From a virus: a stretch of 44,163 nt of DNA. Below are positions 5,070 to 11,676 of the stretch, piece after piece. The notes under the pieces are model-generated. The model saw only the letters and a program-made list of their open reading frames with translations. It was not told the DNA's origin and made no database searches. The stretch is from the UHGV virus genome UHGV-0207246. One strand, 5' to 3'. The number at the start of each line of letters is the position of its first letter. Position 1 is the first letter of the stretch. Position numbers and translations under genes: made by a program.

Positions 5070-5482
5070 TGGGCTACTTTGAGGACTTAACAAAAGCGTT
5101 CGATGTGCCGCTGGTAGCCTTCGGAACCGCCAACGGCATCAAGGTTGCACTTGAAAACATCGACGCGCCGACGTCAACCGATACCCCGTATCTGGCGAGT
5201 TACATGCTACTCGCGGATACCGAGCAGGCGGATTTGTTCTTCACGGAACAACGCTCTGGTATCTATCAGGTCGACATTAACTACGCATCGGTGAAAGGTA
5301 GCGCGCCAATCAATAAAATGGCAGACTTACTTAACACGGCGTTTAAAGCAGGTAAGTCATTTTCACGTAACGACATCTGCGCCGAGGTTCAATCGGTTAG
5401 CCTGGGGCCGCTGATTGTAGAAAACGGATGGGCCAAACGGCCATTGTCAATTAACTTTATTGCATTCACCAAGAGGCTGTGA
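5066..5482 (+). CDS. tail terminator protein candidate
   Basis: Synteny immediately upstream of major tail protein. Confidence 0.4.
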   Translation: MMGYFEDLTKAFDVPLVAFGTANGIKVALENIDAPTSTDTPYLASYMLLADTEQADLFFTEQRSGIYQVDINYASVKGSAPINKMADLLNTAFKAGKSFSRNDICAEVQSVSLGPLIVENGWAKRPLSINFIAFTKRL

Positions 5483-6651
5483 ATATGGCTACAACTCCTT
5501 TTAAGGGCGCGAATACCGCGCAATTCTATGTGGCGGAAGTGACCCCGGGCGTAACACCGGATAACCCGGTATGGTCGCCGTTGCGCAATACGGGCGGTGT
5601 TCCGGCCATTACCCGCGACACGCTGACCTCCAATGAACTTGACGGCAGCCGTGAAACTACATCCATCCGCACCGGCAACAAGCAGGTTAGCGGAGAATAC
5701 GCTATTGAGCTTAGCTCGAAAAGCCAGGACGACTGGTTAGCCGGGGCTTTAGGCTCTACGTGGCAATCCGGCGTTTCTCTGTCCGGGCTGTCTATTACCG
5801 TCGCACCGGCGGGAAAGACATTCACCCGTGCAGAAGGTAGCTTTATTTCTGACGGCGTTGAAGTGGGGGACTTAATCGCGTTCACCGATTTAACTGGCGA
5901 TAACGCCAAACCGTTTATCGTAACCGAGGTAAGTGCGACAGTTGTCACCGGTGCTGGTACCCAACATACTCTGACCACTGAGACCGCCACTACTGCGGCT
6001 AAAACTGGCGATAAGCTGGAAACCGGTAGCCAGTGTAAGACGTTCTCTATTCTCACCTGGTACAAAGGCCAGTGTGGTGGGGCCGACGCGTACACGCTGA
6101 CCAAAGGCGTGGAAGTTTCTGGCTTCACTATTGAGCAGGCCGTTAACGCGATGGTAACTGGCAGCTTCCCGTTCATCGGTCGCAGTCAGGAGATTCTCGC
6201 CACGCAGCCGACAGGTTCTGATTTCTCCTCTGTCACGTTTGGTGACGAGCCGTTCTCTTCGGTTGACGTTTCTGTGTTCGATGGCTCAACACCGTTGCGC
6301 TGCGACAGCCTGGCCATCACCAACGACAACAGCGCGTCCGCTCAGTTCGAACTCGGCAACACTAACGTGGCGTTTGTGGAGCGTAGCCGCGCGGCTAACA
6401 CCTTCTCTATCTCTGGTAAGCTGTACGACATGGCTATGATTCAGAAGTTTATCAACGAACAGCAGGTAGAGATTAACTCTATTCTGGCGGGGGTAAACGG
6501 GGCTATGTCTTTCAGTTTAAAACGTGCGGAACTGACAGCGGTTACACCTGAGATTGGCGGACCTGAGTCAATCACTCAGTCTATTGAAGGCCAGGCTACT
6601 GGCAACCAGTACCAGTCGTCTATTGTTATTCAGCGTATCACCTACGCATAA
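5479..6651 (+). CDS. major tail (tube) protein
   Basis: 390 aa ORF after neck genes and before chaperone/tape-measure genes; followed by strong terminator. Confidence 0.6.
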   Translation: MNMATTPFKGANTAQFYVAEVTPGVTPDNPVWSPLRNTGGVPAITRDTLTSNELDGSRETTSIRTGNKQVSGEYAIELSSKSQDDWLAGALGSTWQSGVSLSGLSITVAPAGKTFTRAEGSFISDGVEVGDLIAFTDLTGDNAKPFIVTEVSATVVTGAGTQHTLTTETATTAAKTGDKLETGSQCKTFSILTWYKGQCGGADAYTLTKGVEVSGFTIEQAVNAMVTGSFPFIGRSQEILATQPTGSDFSSVTFGDEPFSSVDVSVFDGSTPLRCDSLAITNDNSASAQFELGNTNVAFVERSRAANTFSISGKLYDMAMIQKFINEQQVEINSILAGVNGAMSFSLKRAELTAVTPEIGGPESITQSIEGQATGNQYQSSIVIQRITYA

Positions 6652-6655
6652 AACT

Positions 6656-6679
6656 AAGGCCCCGAAAGGGGCCTTTTCT
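6656..6679. terminator. bidirectional rho-independent terminator
   Basis: AAGGCCCC-GAAA-GGGGCCTT flanked by A-run and T-run between convergent genes. Confidence 0.75.
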
Positions 6680-6909
6680 TACTCATCAATATTGCTTCGG
6701 TATTCCCGTAACTTCTCCAGACTTTCAATTGCTTCCGCTAAGTCTGTTCCGGTATCCTTGTGACCGCGCAGGCCCATACACAACAGCTTCTTCAATGCGT
6801 GCTGTAGCGCCGGGTCACGGATATCGAAAGCACGGAGAACATCATAAACGTCTACTGTCATAGTGCTGCCGTGAATGTTTGTCATTGTTCGGTTGTATTT
6901 TGAAGTCAT
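6679..6909 (-). CDS. DUF3310-like small phage protein
   Basis: Pattern VYDVLRAF...LQHALKKLLCMGLRGHKDTG.DLAEAIESLEKL resembles the DUF3310 family consensus (from memory). Confidence 0.45.
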   Translation of the reverse strand: MTSKYNRTMTNIHGSTMTVDVYDVLRAFDIRDPALQHALKKLLCMGLRGHKDTGTDLAEAIESLEKLREYRSNIDE

Positions 6910-8036
6910 CCCAGCATCTCCGGTGAAATAGTTAAACGTGCGACCTCACCATATTCGGCGCTATAAGTAATTACATTAGCACTGCGGCCCGACATCCATC
7001 CGCCGCGGGAGGCGTAGGCGTCTTTAGCCGCTAAGGTGCGGTGTTGCTCAACAACCATGTTACGGCTTTCTACAATCTTCTGGTGGTGCAGATGGCCTAC
7101 GTGGGCGTAGCTGTAAACACTCTCGCCGAACGCTTTGCGGAACTTGGCAATCATAACCGGTTCGATAGCATCGAAGCGCGATTTATGCCCGTGGTGAAAG
7201 AACAACGTCGTTTTGCCGTGTTGCACCATCTTGTAAACGTCTGGTGACGTATCGACAATCACTCGGCTGTCGTTTGAGTATAAAACCGTGAACATTTCGG
7301 CGAGCCATACAGAGCCTACAGGGTCGTGGTTACCTTGAACTATTAAGAGTTTGACTGTGTGATGTTTAACAAGCGCCATATCGACAACACGACGCACCAT
7401 ACGAATCATGTAGCGAACTAGTTTCTGATAGCGAGTATCGGCGTCTAACACATGACGCGACTCAGGGGTAACGGCATCAAGACTATCGAAGTGCGCGAAG
7501 TCTCCTAGCAGATTAATAACTCCTGTTCCCGCGTCCGGTGCTTTCTGAAACGCCGCGTCGAACCATCGAGAGAACAGGTCTTCTGCAATCTTCATGTCCC
7601 AGTCGTCGCCGCTCTCGTCTGCCCATGCAAGCATACCGAGATGGAAATCAGACACAGTGTAAAGATTGAGAAGTTTATCGTCGCGTTTGGCGCGAGTCGC
7701 TTTAACAGGCGCAACAGGTGTAATCTCTGACTTCATGCCTTCAATTACGGCTTTCATCAACTCGACCTGACGTTCAGCATCGGTGTCAGTCTTAACCCAT
7801 TGCAACTTAGTGTTGCCGAACTCGTCCACCAGGGACGACGTGCCTTTAATCTTGTAGCCGTCCGGCACAAGGTGACTAACGTCGCGCCCGTGGCCTACAC
7901 CTTTCTTAGCCAGCTTCGCTTTACGGATACGAATAACGCGGTCTGAGATGCCGTATTTACGGGCGATATCAATAATCTTCATCCCGGCGTTCAATTCTTC
8001 CTGTAACTGTTCGTCGGTTATTTTCTTCTGGGCCAT
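6906..8036 (-). CDS. N-terminal HTH domain fused to calcineurin-like metallophosphoesterase
   Basis: MPP motifs in order: DFHLG, GDFAHFD, GNHD, GHLHH; N-terminal IIDIARKYGISDRVIRIRKAKL is HTH-like; RBS GAGGAAG. Confidence 0.65.
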   Translation of the reverse strand: MAQKKITDEQLQEELNAGMKIIDIARKYGISDRVIRIRKAKLAKKGVGHGRDVSHLVPDGYKIKGTSSLVDEFGNTKLQWVKTDTDAERQVELMKAVIEGMKSEITPVAPVKATRAKRDDKLLNLYTVSDFHLGMLAWADESGDDWDMKIAEDLFSRWFDAAFQKAPDAGTGVINLLGDFAHFDSLDAVTPESRHVLDADTRYQKLVRYMIRMVRRVVDMALVKHHTVKLLIVQGNHDPVGSVWLAEMFTVLYSNDSRVIVDTSPDVYKMVQHGKTTLFFHHGHKSRFDAIEPVMIAKFRKAFGESVYSYAHVGHLHHQKIVESRNMVVEQHRTLAAKDAYASRGGWMSGRSANVITYSAEYGEVARLTISPEMLG

Positions 8037-8101
8037 GCTTACTTCCTCGTGTTTAGGATTTGTCCTATTTAACCACAGTGCATTCCTTTAAATAAAGGCG
8101 A

Positions 8102-8428
8102 CTATTTACTTTCTGCGCCTATCGCCCACCCTGTCATTACCATTTGCAGACGGGTGGCTGTCAGTAGGCTATAGAAAGCATCTCCGTTTTTCTCTACCGA
8201 ACGTATCACTGTGTAGGTTACGGCCTGCGGGGGTAGGCCCGATTTACCAACCTCTACAGCGGCCTCACACTCGCGAACGGTAGAGTCCTTAAATGCCTTT
8301 ACAATAGTAGGGTCGGCTTTATCGAGAACACCAGAAGTCATAAGAACAGATTCACTAAATACCTGTTCGCACGGAGACCCAAAAGCGGCAAAAGACATAA
8401 ACCCCAGAGCTAATACTAATTTACGCAT
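8102..8428 (-). CDS. secreted/periplasmic protein (signal peptide), function unknown
   Basis: N-terminal MRKLVLALGFMSFAAFGS signal-peptide-like; first gene downstream of an early-type promoter. Confidence 0.5.
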   Translation of the reverse strand: MRKLVLALGFMSFAAFGSPCEQVFSESVLMTSGVLDKADPTIVKAFKDSTVRECEAAVEVGKSGLPPQAVTYTVIRSVEKNGDAFYSLLTATRLQMVMTGWAIGAESK

Positions 8429-8456
8429 AATTATTTCCTCAGTAGGTTACAGGTGA

Positions 8457-8485
8457 ATAGTACCCTATTATATTGGGGTGTGCAA
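8457..8485 (-). promoter_or_regulatory. class I early-type promoter (TTGCAC-17-TACTAT) for the minus-strand island
   Basis: Reverse complement TTGCACACCCCAATATAATAGGGTACTATTCACC matches the 30384-30412 promoter at about 32 of 35 positions; contains AATAG-N4-CTATT inverted repeat. Confidence 0.6.
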
Positions 8486-8592
8486 GTAGTGTGTTAGAAT
8501 AAGTTTGCGCCTAGTGTCGCACACGAAAAGCGGGTGGTTCCCGTCTGGCGCAACACCATCAACCAGTAACCTCTTAACCAAAGGATTAAAGA

Positions 8593-9009
8593 ATGAAACT
8601 TTCTGATTTTTATTTTGCGGACCGCCACGCCGCCGGTACTAAAATGCCTATCCTTCTGCCCAGTGGTAAAGATTCCGGTGAATGGTTGCAGGTCATCGGC
8701 CCCGATTGTGACGCTGGTGTTCGTGCGGGCCGTGCCTACACAACGGCAATTCGACGCCTTACGGAAGAACTTGCGCCATTAGATAAAGAGTGCGAGGCGC
8801 TGAATAACTGGGCGCGCTATAATGATGAGAAGGGCTGGCGGGTGATGGACCTGAACAAGCAGCTTGCCGTGGAAATCGTCACCGGTTGGTCATTCGACGA
8901 ACCATTCAGCAAAGAGGCGCTTGCTAACCTGTTCGACCAGTACAGTGGGTTGGCAGAGGCCGTAGTTAAGCATCACACCGATAGCCGTGAGAAACTCTCG
9001 GAAAAGTAA
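8593..9009 (+). CDS. tail assembly chaperone (gpG-like)
   Basis: Position immediately upstream of tape measure; followed by overlapping ORF in -1 frame. Confidence 0.55.
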   Translation: MKLSDFYFADRHAAGTKMPILLPSGKDSGEWLQVIGPDCDAGVRAGRAYTTAIRRLTEELAPLDKECEALNNWARYNDEKGWRVMDLNKQLAVEIVTGWSFDEPFSKEALANLFDQYSGLAEAVVKHHTDSREKLSEK

Positions 9010-9098
9010 AAGCGCTGTATGAATTTGCGCAATGGTGCTTTGTCGACCGCCACAAACGTAAGCAATTCGACGACATCGCGGCGGGCCACCAGGCGGCT

Positions 9099-9371
9099 TT
9101 GATTGCAATGGGCGTGATTAAAGAACCGCAGATGAAAGAAGCGACGGGGCCGGAATGCCCCGTTTCTCTTATCGACGTGTTCGAGAAATACCGTGCCATT
9201 AAATTCCTACAGCGCGAAACAGATGATACTATCGTTATAATCCCGCGCGATGCGCTCAAATGGCAAGATTTGGTAGCGTTTCGTGATGTCGCCGGTTACG
9301 GCATAAGTTTGTTCGAAGCCGAGGTTATCATGGGCTTAGACGGAATATTTGAGGGCAGAGAAGATGGCTGA
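9099..9371 (+). CDS. tail assembly chaperone extension (gpT-like), probably expressed as a -1 frameshift fusion with 8593..9009
   Basis: -1 frame is open from 8991; shifty A_AAG at 9003-9006 just before the zero-frame stop; classic G/GT arrangement before tape measure. Confidence 0.45.
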   Translation: MIAMGVIKEPQMKEATGPECPVSLIDVFEKYRAIKFLQRETDDTIVIIPRDALKWQDLVAFRDVAGYGISLFEAEVIMGLDGIFEGREDG

Positions 9372-11676
9372 TACGGCTTCCCTAATTGCCAGAGTAAAAA
9401 CAGAAGGCGCTGATGTAGCCGCTAAACAGCTTGACGCTATGGCGGCATCCGCAGACCGTGCGGACACATCCGTAAACAAACTAACGCCGGATGTTAATAA
9501 AGTAAACTCCGCTACGTCTAAAGCGGCTTCTGACGGTTTCGCTAAATTCCGTAACGCCGCCGGGCAGGTAGGCTTCCAGGTGCAGGACATGGTCGTCCAG
9601 TTGCAGTCCGGCACGTCTGCATTCGTAGCAATCGGGCAACAAGGCTCTCAGCTTGCGGGTGCTTTCGGCCCTGGTGGCGCGGTGCTTGGGGCCGTAATTG
9701 CTCTTGCGTCAGCAATCGGTGGTGTCCTGTATAAATCGTTAACCGAAGCAGAAGGCAGTTCAAAAGACCTCGAAGCCGCACAGAAACAGCTAAAAGATAC
9801 TTTCCAGCAAACGGCGTCCGGCTCTCTCGAACTGACAGACGGCCTTATCCAGCTTACCCAAATCAGCAGAGAAGCGGCGGAGACTCAGCTTGCGCTGGCT
9901 AAGGCTAACGCGGACCTTATCGCACAGCAAACAGCTAAAGCTGTTCGTGAGGACGCAGAATCATGGGAGACATGGAAGGCATCCACAGCATCAGCTATCA
10001 GCCAGTACGATGCATTGGTCTCTAAAGGTGCGGATGTAGGCGACACGTTAGAAAAACTCGGTGGCACTTACGAGGGTAACATCGTAGGCGTCAACATGCT
10101 GGCGCAGAATATCGCAGAGCTTAGCAGTAAGTTTGGGGTTAACCGTGACCAGGCGCTGGAGATGATAGCGGCGCAGAGTGCGTTTAACAAAGAGCCAACC
10201 GCCGAGAATGCCCGTCGCATCGCCGATGTGTTTACCGACTGGCTCGGTAATACAAAACAGTTGAACCCGGAACTTATCCGCCTGACCGACAATGCCAACA
10301 AGAACGCCACGGCACTGGAGAACGCGGAGAAGTCCGCAAACGCGGCGGCGGAGGCCCAAAAGAATCTTGGTCGTAACGTCAACTCAACAACGCAGAGATT
10401 CCAGGAACAGAACGAAGCTATCGTCAAAAACCAGCAAATCGCTATCTTAAGTGACCGCGAGCGTATCCGTGCGCAAGCTGAACTGGATAAGCAGGCGTTC
10501 GCTAAACGTGAAGCTGTCACCAAAGAACAGATCGCCGCGTATAATGCTGCGCGTGACACGGAAGCACAACAAGACATCGCTCGCATCGACGCTACCGAAA
10601 AAGCGAAGGCCGACCGCGAGGCCAAATCGAACGAGAAACGGCTGGCGGCACAAGCCAAACGCGAAGAAACGGCGGCTGAACGACAGAAAAAAGCGGCGGA
10701 AGATTTCCTGGCTACTGTCGACCGCACAACCGGAGATGAGATTTCGCGCATTACCGCTGCGGAAGAACAGAAACTGGCGAAACTGGAGGAGTTCAACCGC
10801 GCCGGAACGATAAGCCAGCAGCAGTATGAAAACGCCAAAACTCAAATTATGCTCACAGCCGAGCAGGCCAGACAGGAAGAACTGGATAAGAAAAGAAAAG
10901 AGCAGCAGGAAAAGCAGCAGAAAGGCGAGGACTTCATGGCACAGATTATGGGTCAGAACGCTACTGAGCTTGAGCTTCTCGACATCCAGGAACAGCAGAA
11001 ACTGGAGGTAGCGGATAAGTACCGTGAGCAGGGGCTTATTAGTGAGAAGCAGTACCAGGCGGCGCTTAACGCCATCAATGAGCAGTATGCTACGAAGCGT
11101 GCCGACGCAACGGCAACCGCCTTCGGTAACATGGCTTCAAACATCGGGTCTGCGTTGGGTGAGGCTTCTGGCGCGTATAAGGCATTCGCTATCGTACAGG
11201 CCACTATAGCCACGTACACCGCAGCTATTGAAGCGTATAAGTCAACGGCTGCTATCCCTGTAGTTGGCCCGTTCCTGGCCCCCGTAGCCGCTGCTGCTGC
11301 AGTTGGGGCGGGTATGGCGCAGATTTCCGCCATCAGGTCCGCGCGTGAGCAGGGCGGTCAGTTATCCGCAGGACAGGCTTCCACCATCGCCGAACGCGGT
11401 AAACCCGAAGTTATCATGCCCGCTGGGGCATCGCGTGTGCGCACGGCACAGCAGATGAAAGAAATTATGGGGCAAAACGGGTCTTCTTCCGGCCCATCTA
11501 ATGTTACTATCGTAAATAACACGAGTTCTCAAATTGGCAACGTATCCACCGAACAAGATGATGAAGGCCGTTTGCGTATCATCATCGAGGAGCAGGTGGC
11601 CGCCTCTTTGCAGAACAGCAACAGTAAGATTAGCAAGGCCCGCAAGGCCACAAGAAATGCGCCGGGGTTCAAATAA
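9364..11676 (+). CDS. tail tape measure protein
   Basis: About 770 aa, Ala/Gln/Glu/Lys-rich coiled coil, hydrophobic Gly/Ala-rich segments, located after chaperone pair; start at ATG with RBS GAGGG (track uses upstream TTG). Confidence 0.8.
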   Translation: MADTASLIARVKTEGADVAAKQLDAMAASADRADTSVNKLTPDVNKVNSATSKAASDGFAKFRNAAGQVGFQVQDMVVQLQSGTSAFVAIGQQGSQLAGAFGPGGAVLGAVIALASAIGGVLYKSLTEAEGSSKDLEAAQKQLKDTFQQTASGSLELTDGLIQLTQISREAAETQLALAKANADLIAQQTAKAVREDAESWETWKASTASAISQYDALVSKGADVGDTLEKLGGTYEGNIVGVNMLAQNIAELSSKFGVNRDQALEMIAAQSAFNKEPTAENARRIADVFTDWLGNTKQLNPELIRLTDNANKNATALENAEKSANAAAEAQKNLGRNVNSTTQRFQEQNEAIVKNQQIAILSDRERIRAQAELDKQAFAKREAVTKEQIAAYNAARDTEAQQDIARIDATEKAKADREAKSNEKRLAAQAKREETAAERQKKAAEDFLATVDRTTGDEISRITAAEEQKLAKLEEFNRAGTISQQQYENAKTQIMLTAEQARQEELDKKRKEQQEKQQKGEDFMAQIMGQNATELELLDIQEQQKLEVADKYREQGLISEKQYQAALNAINEQYATKRADATATAFGNMASNIGSALGEASGAYKAFAIVQATIATYTAAIEAYKSTAAIPVVGPFLAPVAAAAAVGAGMAQISAIRSAREQGGQLSAGQASTIAERGKPEVIMPAGASRVRTAQQMKEIMGQNGSSSGPSNVTIVNNTSSQIGNVSTEQDDEGRLRIIIEEQVAASLQNSNSKISKARKATRNAPGFK

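What the first reader, a model, noticed from the sequence alone, without database searches (positions are those of the whole stretch)
8991..9371. Candidate programmed -1 frameshift in the tail assembly chaperone pair
The ORF ending at 9009 is overlapped by a -1 frame that is open from 8991 to 9371 and ends just inside the tape measure gene. The overlap contains GAA-AAG with a shifty A_AAG (9003-9006) right before the zero-frame stop. This is the conserved G/GT-type arrangement, but the heptamer is not a canonical X_XXY_YYZ site.
Basis: partly seen in the sequence, partly recalled or inferred. Interest (0 to 1): 0.4.

Follow-up and report, generated by a model that had tools for sequence, protein, structure and literature searches.

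The report
Tail chaperone frameshift with long-range RNA helix
This is the expected tail-assembly-chaperone frameshift of an E. coli Kagunavirus phage, already annotated in a close relative; it uses a minimal A_AAG slip site beside the stop codon, followed by a conserved long-range RNA helix that seems not to have been described.

Summary
G (8593-9009) ends GAA-AAG-TAA. The -1 frame is open from 8991 to 9371 and ends 8 nt inside the tape measure gene.

The window is a Kagunavirus (Guernseyvirinae), 99% identical to phage 590B. The predicted 259-aa fusion (…SEK|VKAL…) is identical to GenBank ADA82316.1 / YP_009168853.1 of phage K1H. So the frameshift itself is already annotated, although most related records call two separate ORFs.

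Across 84 related loci, down to 46% protein identity:
- A_AAG is invariant, while the preceding codon varies (GAA, GCA, GTA, TCA).
- In 27 of 29 lineage representatives a TAA or TAG stop follows A_AAG directly.
- The -1 frame stays open for about 360 nt in all 49 loci where this was measured.
- No start codon is conserved in T, and 7 of 29 lineages have none in its first 45 codons.

This is therefore a single tRNA-Lys slip on a tetramer, not an X_XXY_YYZ tandem slip.

One feature seems new. An invariant GCGCUG starts 5 nt after the slip site and forms the 5' arm of a helix (9012-9026 with 9201-9215, 14 of 15 pairs, 174-nt loop). The helix is supported by compensatory changes, by synonymous-site constraint, and by relocation of the 3' arm in some clades. 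It is probably the stimulator that a tetramer site needs. Nothing here has been tested experimentally.

The parts
8593..9009 (+). Gene G: tail assembly chaperone, 138 aa, 15.6 kDa. This is the zero-frame product ending ...SEK-stop. Its Shine-Dalgarno AGGA is at 8582-8585.
   Evidence: ORF list. Pfam PF08748 Phage_TAC_4, E=1e-8. PHROG 15027 positions 1-138. Annotated as tail assembly chaperone in relatives. Mass and AGGA.
9003..9006 (+). Slip site A_AAG. The full local heptamer is G_GAA_AAG, 9000-9006. tRNA-Lys decoding AAG (9004-9006) re-pairs with AAA (9003-9005).
   Evidence: Sequence. Invariant in 84 related loci, while the preceding codon varies among GAA, GCA, GTA and TCA. In L049 and L051 a -1 frame TAA two codons upstream confines the shift to C_GCA_AAG.
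9007..9009 (+). Zero-frame stop TAA immediately 3' of the slip site. It overlaps the first -1 frame codon after the slip (GTA, Val).
   Evidence: The next zero-frame codon is TAG in 17 and TAA in 10 of 29 lineages. One lineage has TGA and one has TTA followed by TAG.
9006..9371 (+). T segment, read in the -1 frame only after the slip: 121 codons plus TGA at 9369-9371. The fusion GT = join(8593..9006, 9006..9371), 259 aa, 29.3 kDa.
   Evidence: Pfam PF23812 Phage_TAC_18, E=9.5e-18, and PHROG 15027 positions 138-259. The fusion is identical to ADA82316.1 / YP_009168853.1. Codon-position divergence upstream of any start is 0.25/0.25/0.56.
9012..9026 (+). 5' arm of the long-range RNA helix (GCGCUGUAUGAAUUU). 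It starts 5 nt after the G of A_AAG.
   Evidence: Inverted repeat I2, 93% complementary. GCGCUGU is the most conserved nucleotide block of the junction, including synonymous positions.
9201..9215 (+). 3' arm of the long-range RNA helix (AAAUUCCUACAGCGC). It lies 174 nt downstream of the 5' arm, within T codons K-F-L-Q-R.
   Evidence: In alignment A2 the helix has 86% of cells paired against 22-49% for slid controls, and 8 double-change cells against 0 of 500 shuffles. RNAalifold finds it unaided. It closes the minimum-energy fold of 9007-9222, z=-3.5. It is the top-ranked of 26,565 possible 9-bp helices.
9364..11676 (+). Tape measure gene (ATG 9364). It overlaps the T stop by 8 nt and provides the downstream context of the G/GT pair.
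   Evidence: PHROG 1538, E=1.9e-198. Relatives annotate the start at the equivalent of 9364.

Best explanation
The site is a programmed -1 ribosomal frameshift that makes two tail assembly chaperones from one mRNA.

Most ribosomes translating G (8593-9009) terminate at TAA 9007 and release the 138-aa G protein. A minority slip back one base on A_AAG (9003-9006): tRNA-Lys un-pairs from AAG and re-pairs with AAA. These ribosomes then read GUA (Val) across the stop and continue for 121 codons to TGA 9369-9371. The product is a 259-aa G-T fusion (...SEK|VKALYEF...).

The slip is essentially a single-tRNA event on a tetramer of the NNA_AAG 'hexanucleotide' type, because the preceding codon is not conserved. 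In this window the preceding codon is GAA, which could re-pair with GGA through a central G.U pair.

Two features are inferred to raise the slip to a useful level:
- The adjacent stop codon, which would give a slow A site.
- An RNA helix whose 5' arm (9012-9026) begins 5 nt after the slip site and whose 3' arm lies 174 nt downstream (9201-9215).

Zero-frame ribosomes terminate just before the helix. The T region is therefore rarely translated, so the long-range fold can persist.

By analogy with lambda gpG/gpGT, the G part binds the tape measure protein and the T part recruits the tail tube protein.

Status of each step:
- Shown: the sequence architecture and its conservation.
- Inferred: the slip mechanism, the stimulatory role of the helix and the stop, and the protein functions.
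For: Identity and prior annotation
- The window is a Kagunavirus, 99% identical to phage 590B.
- G and T hit chaperone families, and a fused 259-position PHROG profile covers both.
- The predicted fusion is identical to the deposited K1H protein. The alternative junction ...SGK... is not in the collection.
- Shemara (Cornellvirus) is annotated the same way.

Slip site
- In 84 loci (67 unique sequences) A_AAG is invariant. In 29 lineage representatives the Lys codon is AAG 29 of 29 times, against a background of 0.53.
- The preceding codon is GAA in 15, GCA in 9, GTA in 4 and TCA in 1 lineage.
- A stop follows directly in 27 of 29 lineages as TAA or TAG, and as TGA in one more.
- A -1 frame stop confines the shift to the last two codons in L049 and L051.

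T is not independently initiated
- No start codon is conserved, and 7 of 29 lineages have none in 45 codons.
- The T N-terminus shows divergence of 0.25/0.25/0.56 by codon position in the -1 frame.

Helix
- The arms are 14 of 15 complementary in the window.
- 86% of cells are paired, against 22-49% for slid controls. Double-change cells and the covariation score are each reached by 0 of 500 shuffles.
- RNAalifold predicts the helix independently.
- It is the best of 26,565 candidate helices: 0.935 of cells paired, against 0.74 for the best unrelated candidate.
- Lineage L024 carries four compensated pairs (GUUGAAAU/AUUUCAAC). TAC always pairs with a G in the partner column.
- Synonymous codon choice is fixed in the arms: GCG 29 of 29 (background 0.37), CTG 27 of 29 (0.20), CGC 25 of 28 (0.35).
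- In the 12 core pairs G.U outnumbers A.C 17 to 3, which points to a plus-strand RNA.
- Clades that lack the +207 partner have a partner at about +121 to +140 instead. This includes a GCGUUG/CAACGC compensation in Jerseyvirus Ent2 and Sciku.

Literature
- In E. coli reporters A_AAG is by far the best tetramer. It is near background alone and reaches up to 5.6% with a strong downstream structure (PMC4066793).
- NNA_AAG sites are used by B. subtilis cdd and by IS1222 (PMC5009743).
Against: - I found no experimental evidence for this phage group: no fusion protein detected and no reporter assay.
- One genome announcement for a relative states there is 'no canonical slippery sequence' (PMC6776780). 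Most records annotate T as a separate ORF, some with a CTG start.
- Covariation in the helix is modest. Most columns are invariant. Only 3 of 15 pairs show double changes, and 13 of 500 shuffles reach that count.
- Both arms are coding, so part of their conservation is protein-level.
- Lineage L088 has only a weak helix.
- A closing helix with a 174-nt loop is not a typical bacterial stimulator.
- No upstream Shine-Dalgarno-like stimulator is present.
- Whether the slip happens with AAG in the A site or in the P site (stop in the A site) cannot be decided from sequence.
Confidence: 0.82

Rival explanations
1. T is a separate protein, initiated on its own at TTG 9099 or ATG 9108, and no frameshift occurs.
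For: ORF callers list a 90-aa ORF from TTG 9099. Pfam PF23812 starts its match exactly there. Several GenBank records annotate a stand-alone ORF.
Against: - Neither codon is conserved: Met 36 is Ile or Gln in many lineages.
- Seven of 29 lineages have no ATG/GTG/TTG in the first 45 T codons.
- No Shine-Dalgarno sequence precedes these codons in most lineages.
- The 30 codons upstream of them are the most conserved part of T, with -1 frame periodicity.
- This scenario would leave the invariant A_AAG unexplained.
Confidence: 0.03
2. T is made by termination-reinitiation. Ribosomes stop at TAA 9007 and restart at the nearby CUG (9015-9017), giving a 118-aa T protein. This is how Bas75 and other records annotate it, and it matches PHROG 4557.
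For: CUG (or UUG) at T codon 5 is nearly invariant. Bas75 and Ent2 annotate this start. PHROG 4557 is a 118-position profile beginning there.
Against: - Two lineages have CUC at that codon, which is not a start.
- No Shine-Dalgarno sequence is present.
- The invariance of CUG is explained by the helix, since the synonymous G pairs with the C of CAGCGC.
- Reinitiation would not require A_AAG, yet AAG is 29 of 29 and the preceding base is always A.
- CUG is a very weak initiator in E. coli (general knowledge).
Confidence: 0.05
3. The frameshift is real, but the long-range helix is not its stimulator. The helix instead serves the sparsely translated T region in another way: protection from RNases, blocking Rho loading so that transcription reaches the tape measure gene, or modulating termination or recycling at the G stop.
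For: - The whole 9007-9222 domain folds unusually well (z=-3.5).
- It contains a terminator-like hairpin.
- A 174-nt loop is atypical for a frameshift stimulator.
- For lambda G/GT, to my recollection, no downstream structure is required.
Against: - The 5' arm is fixed in position (pos +9, a 5-nt spacer) and in sequence in every lineage, while the 3' arm moves between about +130 and +207. That ties the element to the slip/stop site rather than to general structure.
- In lineage L036 the stop is displaced by a codon, yet the arm keeps its distance from A_AAG.
- A_AAG alone is near background in E. coli and needs a downstream stimulator (PMC4066793).
- No other stimulator, such as a Shine-Dalgarno-like motif or a local hairpin, is present.
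Confidence: 0.3
4. The fusion arises from transcriptional slippage on the A run, not from ribosomal slippage.
For: The site contains a short A run: AAAA in the window.
Against: The run is only 4 A in the window and 3 A in lineages with GCA, GTA or TCA before AAG. That is far shorter than the runs known to give polymerase slippage (established knowledge; reviewed in PMC5009743).
Confidence: 0.01

Closest known systems
Phage lambda G/GT tail assembly chaperone -1 frameshift (Levin, Hendrix & Casjens 1993; Xu, Hendrix & Duda 2004, 2013, 2014; summarised in PMC5009743)
   Same: - Two overlapping ORFs lie directly upstream of the tape measure gene.
- The second ORF is in the -1 frame and has no start of its own.
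- The A-site event is the same: Lys AAG to AAA.
- A short abundant product and a rare fusion are expected.
   Different: - Lambda uses the heptamer G_GGA_AAG, with cognate P-site re-pairing. Here the P-site codon is unconstrained (GAA, GCA, GTA or TCA).
- Here the stop follows the slip codon directly.
- A conserved long-range helix follows the site.
- Three opposite-strand genes separate the tube gene from G.
K1H ORF19A/19B (ADA82315.1 / ADA82316.1; RefSeq YP_009168853.1) and the Shemara 'tail assembly chaperone frameshift product' (QEA10354.1)
   Same: The K1H fusion protein has an identical sequence, and the junction (…EK|VKAL…) is the same in both records.
   Different: These are database annotations only. 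I found no description of the slip motif, no evidence of its conservation, no RNA structure and no experiment.
Tetranucleotide/hexanucleotide NNA_AAG -1 sites: B. subtilis cdd (A_CGA_AAG), IS1222 (G_CGA_AAG), and A_AAG reporters with the IS3 pseudoknot (PMC5009743; PMC4066793)
   Same: - A single tRNA-Lys slips from AAG to AAA.
- The 5' codon ends in A but is not itself slippery.
- Efficiency depends on an added stimulator.
   Different: - The stimulator here is neither a local pseudoknot nor an upstream Shine-Dalgarno-like sequence. It is a helix closed over about 100-175 nt.
- The stop codon is immediately adjacent.
- The host gene is a phage chaperone.
E. coli dnaX (A_AAA_AAG with an upstream Shine-Dalgarno-like element and a stem-loop 6 nt downstream)
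   Same: The same host and the same tRNA-Lys slip, with a downstream structure at a similar spacing (5-6 nt).
   Different: dnaX has a full heptamer, an upstream Shine-Dalgarno-like stimulator and a compact hairpin. Its efficiency is about 50%.
Long-distance RNA interactions in plant-virus -1 frameshifting (for example umbravirus-like RNAs, PMC10602861)
   Same: Base pairing between sequences far apart contributes to the structure next to the slip site.
   Different: In those viruses a local stem-loop is supplemented by pairing to a distant 3' element. Here the helix adjacent to the slip site is itself the long-range pairing, both arms are coding, and the system is bacterial.

Membership tests
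G/GT-type tail assembly chaperone programmed frameshift (Xu, Hendrix & Duda 2004) | Two ORFs lie between the major tail (tube) gene and the tape measure gene, immediately upstream of the tape measure gene. | tested here: met
   The tube gene is 5479-6651 (PF18906), G is 8593-9009, T runs to 9371 and the tape measure gene starts at 9364. Caveat: three opposite-strand genes (6679-8428) sit between the tube gene and G.
G/GT-type tail assembly chaperone programmed frameshift (Xu, Hendrix & Duda 2004) | The second ORF overlaps the 3' end of the first in another frame and lacks its own conserved start and ribosome binding site. | tested here: met
   The -1 frame is open from 8991. No start codon is conserved, and 7 of 29 lineages have none in 45 codons.
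G/GT-type tail assembly chaperone programmed frameshift (Xu, Hendrix & Duda 2004) | A canonical X_XXY_YYZ slippery heptamer lies in the overlap. | tested here: not met
   The heptamer is G_GAA_AAG in the window, and C_GCA_AAG, G_GTA_AAG or G_TCA_AAG in relatives. Only the A_AAG tetramer is conserved. This affects the type of site, not the arrangement.
G/GT-type tail assembly chaperone programmed frameshift (Xu, Hendrix & Duda 2004) | Both parts belong to tail assembly chaperone protein families. | tested here: met
   PF08748 (E=1e-8), PF23812 (E=9.5e-18), and PHROG 15027 and 313.
G/GT-type tail assembly chaperone programmed frameshift (Xu, Hendrix & Duda 2004) | A short product and a fusion are made in a fixed ratio, both are needed for tail assembly, and both are absent from virions. 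| not testable with these tools
   This needs western blotting or mass spectrometry and genetics. I found no published data for Guernseyvirinae.
Tetra/hexanucleotide NNA_AAG -1 frameshift sites (cdd, IS1222; Sharma et al. 2014) | Zero-frame AAG is preceded by A, so that tRNA-Lys can re-pair with AAA. The 5' codon is not required to re-pair. | tested here: met
   A_AAG is present in 84 of 84 loci, and the 5' codon varies.
Tetra/hexanucleotide NNA_AAG -1 frameshift sites (cdd, IS1222; Sharma et al. 2014) | A flanking stimulator is present: a downstream structure or an upstream Shine-Dalgarno-like sequence. | tested here: inconclusive
   A conserved helix starting 5 nt downstream is predicted and supported by covariation. 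No Shine-Dalgarno-like element is present. Stimulation itself was not measured.
Downstream RNA stimulators of -1 frameshifting (stem-loop or pseudoknot) | A stable structure starts about 5-9 nt 3' of the slip site. | tested here: met
   The 5' arm starts at 9012, 5 nt after 9006. It extends to a 3-4 nt spacer in some lineages. Duplex energies are -17 to -28 kcal/mol in 25 of 29 lineages.
Downstream RNA stimulators of -1 frameshifting (stem-loop or pseudoknot) | The element is compact and local (a hairpin or H-type pseudoknot). | tested here: not met
   No conserved local hairpin is found within 60-135 nt. The helix closes a 174-nt loop, or about 100 nt in the 'near' clades.

The most novel reading that the evidence does not exclude
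Guernseyvirinae set their G:GT ratio with a minimal A_AAG tetramer placed against the G stop codon. The tetramer is made productive by a long-range RNA helix whose 5' arm is fixed 5 nt from the slip site. The 3' arm has moved during evolution between about +130 and +207.

Only frameshifted ribosomes ever melt this helix. It could therefore act as a self-resetting stimulator that keeps the ratio independent of translation load.
Probability: 0.45. Interest if true: 0.6.

Novelty: new variant of a known kind. Interest (0 to 1): 0.42.

Why it matters
- Annotation. Hundreds of Kagunavirus, Jerseyvirus and Cornellvirus genomes, many of them phage-therapy candidates, annotate this locus inconsistently. 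T is called a 'hypothetical protein' or given a CTG or TTG start. At least one paper states that no slippery sequence exists. The rule 'A_AAG + TAR + nnGCGCUG' gives a simple, testable way to join the two ORFs.
- Mechanism. This would be a natural case in which a tetranucleotide site does the job of a heptamer in a conserved phage chaperone. It would add a long-range closing helix to the short list of bacterial -1 frameshift stimulators.
- Tool building. Frameshift predictors that look only for heptamers and local hairpins would miss this site.

Tried and rejected
- Local downstream structure: RNAalifold on 60-135 nt after the slip found nothing conserved, and single-sequence folds were inconsistent.
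- Upstream Shine-Dalgarno-like stimulator: anti-SD duplex energies 6-22 nt upstream are no better than the gene background.
- Known RNA families: no Rfam match at E<=1 in 8900-9400.
- Solved structures and NCBIfam: no informative hit for G, T or the fusion.
- The large protein database returned only G-half homologues at 50-65% identity and no fused ones. The fused entry was found only by exact look-up.
- Alternative junction ...SGK|V...: not in the collection.
- Literature: searches for frameshifting in Kagunavirus, Jerseyvirinae and Guernseyvirinae returned only the Shashou announcement. Licznar et al. 2003 and Anany et al. 2015 are not held, so what I recall of them is used only as a lead.
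- Distant G homologues (Pseudomonas phage Almagne, Vibrio phage 1.207.B) have a T-like ORF in another frame with a longer overlap and a different site. I did not pursue them.

Full report
**What is in the sequence**

The ORF 8593-9009 (138 aa) ends TCG GAA AAG TAA. The -1 frame has TGA at 8988-8990 and is then open from 8991 to TGA 9369-9371. That stop lies 8 nt inside the tape measure gene, which starts at ATG 9364. A_AAG is at 9003-9006 and the heptamer 9000-9006 is G_GAA_AAG.

**What the genes are**

- The window is a Kagunavirus (Guernseyvirinae) siphophage of E. coli, 99% identical to phage 590B over this stretch. A total of 495 phage records share similar DNA.
- G hits Pfam Phage_TAC_4, and the -1 frame part hits Phage_TAC_18.
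- PHROG 15027 is a 259-position 'tail assembly chaperone' profile. G covers positions 1-138 and T covers 138-259, so it is a profile of the fused protein.
- The tube gene (5479-6651) and the tape measure gene (9364-11676) flank the pair. Three opposite-strand genes lie between the tube gene and G.

**The frameshift is already annotated**

RefSeq K1H carries a two-piece CDS, ORF19B. Shemara (Cornellvirus) carries a 'tail assembly chaperone frameshift product'.

A slip at A_AAG in the window gives a 259-aa protein (…SEK|VKALYEF…). An exact look-up shows it is identical to ADA82316.1 / YP_009168853.1. The alternative junction …SGK… is not on record.

Most other records annotate two separate ORFs. 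Examples are Bas75 with a CTG start, SETP3 with a TTG start, Ent2 and Sciku. The Shashou genome announcement says there is 'no canonical slippery sequence' (PMC6776780). I found no experimental test.

**Comparative test of the frameshift**

I collected 84 related loci from IMG/VR, metagenomes and GenBank, with G identity down to about 46%.

- In all 49 loci where it was measured, the -1 frame is open for about 356-365 nt after the G stop.
- A_AAG is invariant across all 84 loci. In 29 lineage representatives (below 92% identity) the Lys codon is AAG 29 of 29 times, against 0.53 elsewhere in the gene.
- The preceding codon is GAA (15), GCA (9), GTA (4) or TCA (1). P-site re-pairing is therefore not conserved. 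The motif is the A_AAG tetramer, of the NNA_AAG hexanucleotide type.
- The next zero-frame codon is TAG (17) or TAA (10). One lineage has TGA, and one has TTA followed by TAG.
- In L049 and L051 a -1 frame TAA lies two codons upstream, so the shift must happen within C_GCA_AAG.

**T is not initiated on its own**

- The T translation is conserved from its first residues: KVxAL[YC]x[FY]xxWx[FY]V….
- Between the helix arm and the first candidate start of the window, divergence by -1 frame codon position is 0.25/0.25/0.56. This makes it the most conserved part of T.
- TTG 9099 and ATG 9108 are not conserved. Seven of 29 lineages have no ATG, GTG or TTG in the first 45 T codons.
- The CUG at T codon 5 is nearly invariant, but it is CUC in two lineages, and its invariance has another explanation (see the next section).

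**A conserved long-range helix**

The most conserved nucleotide block of the junction is AAAGUAR-nn-GCGCUGU, including the synonymous third positions of GCG and CUG. Short-range folding found no conserved hairpin.

The complement CAGCGC lies at +207 in most lineages. In the window, 9012-9026 (GCGCUGUAUGAAUUU) pairs with 9201-9215 (AAAUUCCUACAGCGC). That is 14 of 15 pairs with a 174-nt loop.

Evidence from an alignment of the 29 lineage representatives:
- 86% of cells pair, against 22-49% when the partner is slid by 1-3 columns.
- There are 8 double-change cells, against 1.8±1.0 in shuffles (0 of 500 reach 8). The covariation score is also reached by 0 of 500 shuffles.
- Only 3 of 15 pairs show double changes, and 13 of 500 shuffles reach that count.
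- RNAalifold predicts the same helix without being told.
- Of 26,565 possible 9-bp helices in the alignment, the ten best are all registers of this one. The best scores 0.935 of cells paired, against 0.74 for the best unrelated candidate.

Individual lineages show compensation:
- L024 changed four pairs together (GUUGAAAU/AUUUCAAC), altering residues in both arms.
- UAC always goes with G in the partner column (L036, L050, L073, L080, L088).
- L046 keeps pairing through G.U.

Further support:
- Codon choice in the arms is far from background: GCG 29 of 29 (0.37), CUG 27 of 29 (0.20), CGC 25 of 28 (0.35).
- Third-position divergence is 0.30-0.33 in the arms, against 0.56-0.66 elsewhere.
- In the 12 core pairs G.U outnumbers A.C 17 to 3, as expected for a plus-strand RNA.
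- The minimum-energy fold of 9007-9222 is closed by this helix, with z=-3.5.

**The 3' arm has moved**

Twenty-five of 29 lineages have the 'far' partner, with duplex energies of -17 to -28 kcal/mol. Three clades that lack Q-R at +207 have almost no far pairing (-4 to -6). They have a 'near' partner at +121 to +140 instead, at -18 to -25 kcal/mol.

Jerseyvirus Ent2 and Sciku belong to the near type. They carry GCGUUG paired with CAACGC, which is a compensated change. One lineage (L088) is weak at both sites.

The 5' arm keeps its distance from A_AAG in every case. This includes L036, where the stop is displaced by a codon.

**How it most likely works**

In E. coli reporters A_AAG is by far the best tetramer. 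It is near background on its own (about 0.15%) and reaches up to 5.6% with a strong structure placed 5 nt downstream (PMC4066793). NNA_AAG sites are known from cdd and IS1222 (PMC5009743).

A helix beginning 5 nt after the tetramer is therefore the expected partner. No Shine-Dalgarno-like element or other stimulator was found.

I infer the following sequence of events. The helix resists unwinding as AAG is decoded and translocated. tRNA-Lys re-pairs with AAA. The ribosome then faces GUA instead of the stop. The adjacent stop probably adds a slow A site.

Zero-frame ribosomes terminate just before the helix. The T region is therefore rarely translated, and a long-range fold can persist there.

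The protein functions are taken from lambda gpG/gpGT by analogy: G binds the tape measure protein and T recruits the tube protein.

**Limits**

- Nothing here is experimental.
- The helix covariation is real but modest, and both arms are coding.
- A role for the helix other than stimulation (RNA stability, avoidance of Rho, or an effect on termination) cannot be excluded. I give that about 0.3.
- Whether the slip occurs with AAG in the A site or in the P site is open.

**Verdict**

The frameshift is the ordinary, conserved chaperone frameshift, and it is already in GenBank for an identical protein.

What I could not find in the papers and databases I could search is the site type (a tetramer set against the stop codon) and the conserved, relocatable long-range helix. 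These make it a modestly interesting variant and give a clear annotation rule for the whole subfamily.

Noticed in passing
window 9143-9164 (+), with the U-rich tract to about 9175: A terminator-like hairpin (ACGGGGC-CGGAAU-GCCCCGU followed by UUUCUCUUAUC) lies inside the T reading frame, over the G-P-E-C-P codons. In about half of the related lineages it is sharper: GGGGCC-N6-GCCCC followed by UCUAUUUUU, with an A-rich stretch upstream. It could be a partial transcription terminator or attenuator between G and the tape measure gene, or just part of the folded T-region RNA.
   Followed up: partly
window 6679-8428 (- strand): Three opposite-strand genes interrupt the tail module between the tube gene (5479-6651) and G. 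They are a 76-aa ORF, a 376-aa phosphoesterase or 'DNA repair exonuclease', and a 108-aa protein with a signal-peptide-like N-terminus. Sciku and SETP3 annotate the ORF in the position of the 108-aa protein as superinfection immunity (Imm-like), but I did not compare it with the window protein. G, T and the tape measure gene therefore probably have their own promoter in 8429-8592.
   Followed up: no
window 9099-9368; Pfam PF23812 and PHROG 4557: The Pfam Phage_TAC_18 match starts exactly at the TTG 9099 ORF call, and PHROG 4557 starts at the CTG 9015 call. Both miss T's N-terminus, which is its most conserved part. The family models appear to have been built from ORFs truncated by gene callers, not from the frameshift product.
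   Followed up: partly
L036 and L077 (AAAGTTATAG); L080 (AAAGTGA): There are natural variants of the stop context. In one lineage the stop moved one codon downstream, so G ends ...AKL. Another lineage uses TGA. Both keep A_AAG and the GCGCUG arm in place. They are useful natural controls for the role of the stop.
   Followed up: partly
alignment A2 columns 23-31 with 97-105 (window about 9013-9021 with 9087-9095): The second-best conserved pairing of the 5' arm is with the GAGGCGGC region about 80 nt downstream (0.74 of cells paired). This is also the best duplex in the SETP3-type sequences. It may be an alternative conformation of the element.
   Followed up: no
window 9068-9091 / 9271-9294 and 9062-9080 / 9246-9264: Two further imperfect long inverted repeats (71-74% complementary) lie in the T region. 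Their 3' arms lie outside the main helix, so they would be pseudoknotted with it or compete with it. Their conservation was not examined.
   Followed up: no
L105 (Pseudomonas phage Almagne), L106 (Vibrio phage 1.207.B): Distant G homologues (25-29% identity) also have a T-like ORF (…LDRIYW…) in another frame before the tape measure gene. The overlap is longer and there is no A_AAG-stop motif. The slip-site type is therefore specific to Guernseyvirinae and their close relatives.
   Followed up: partly
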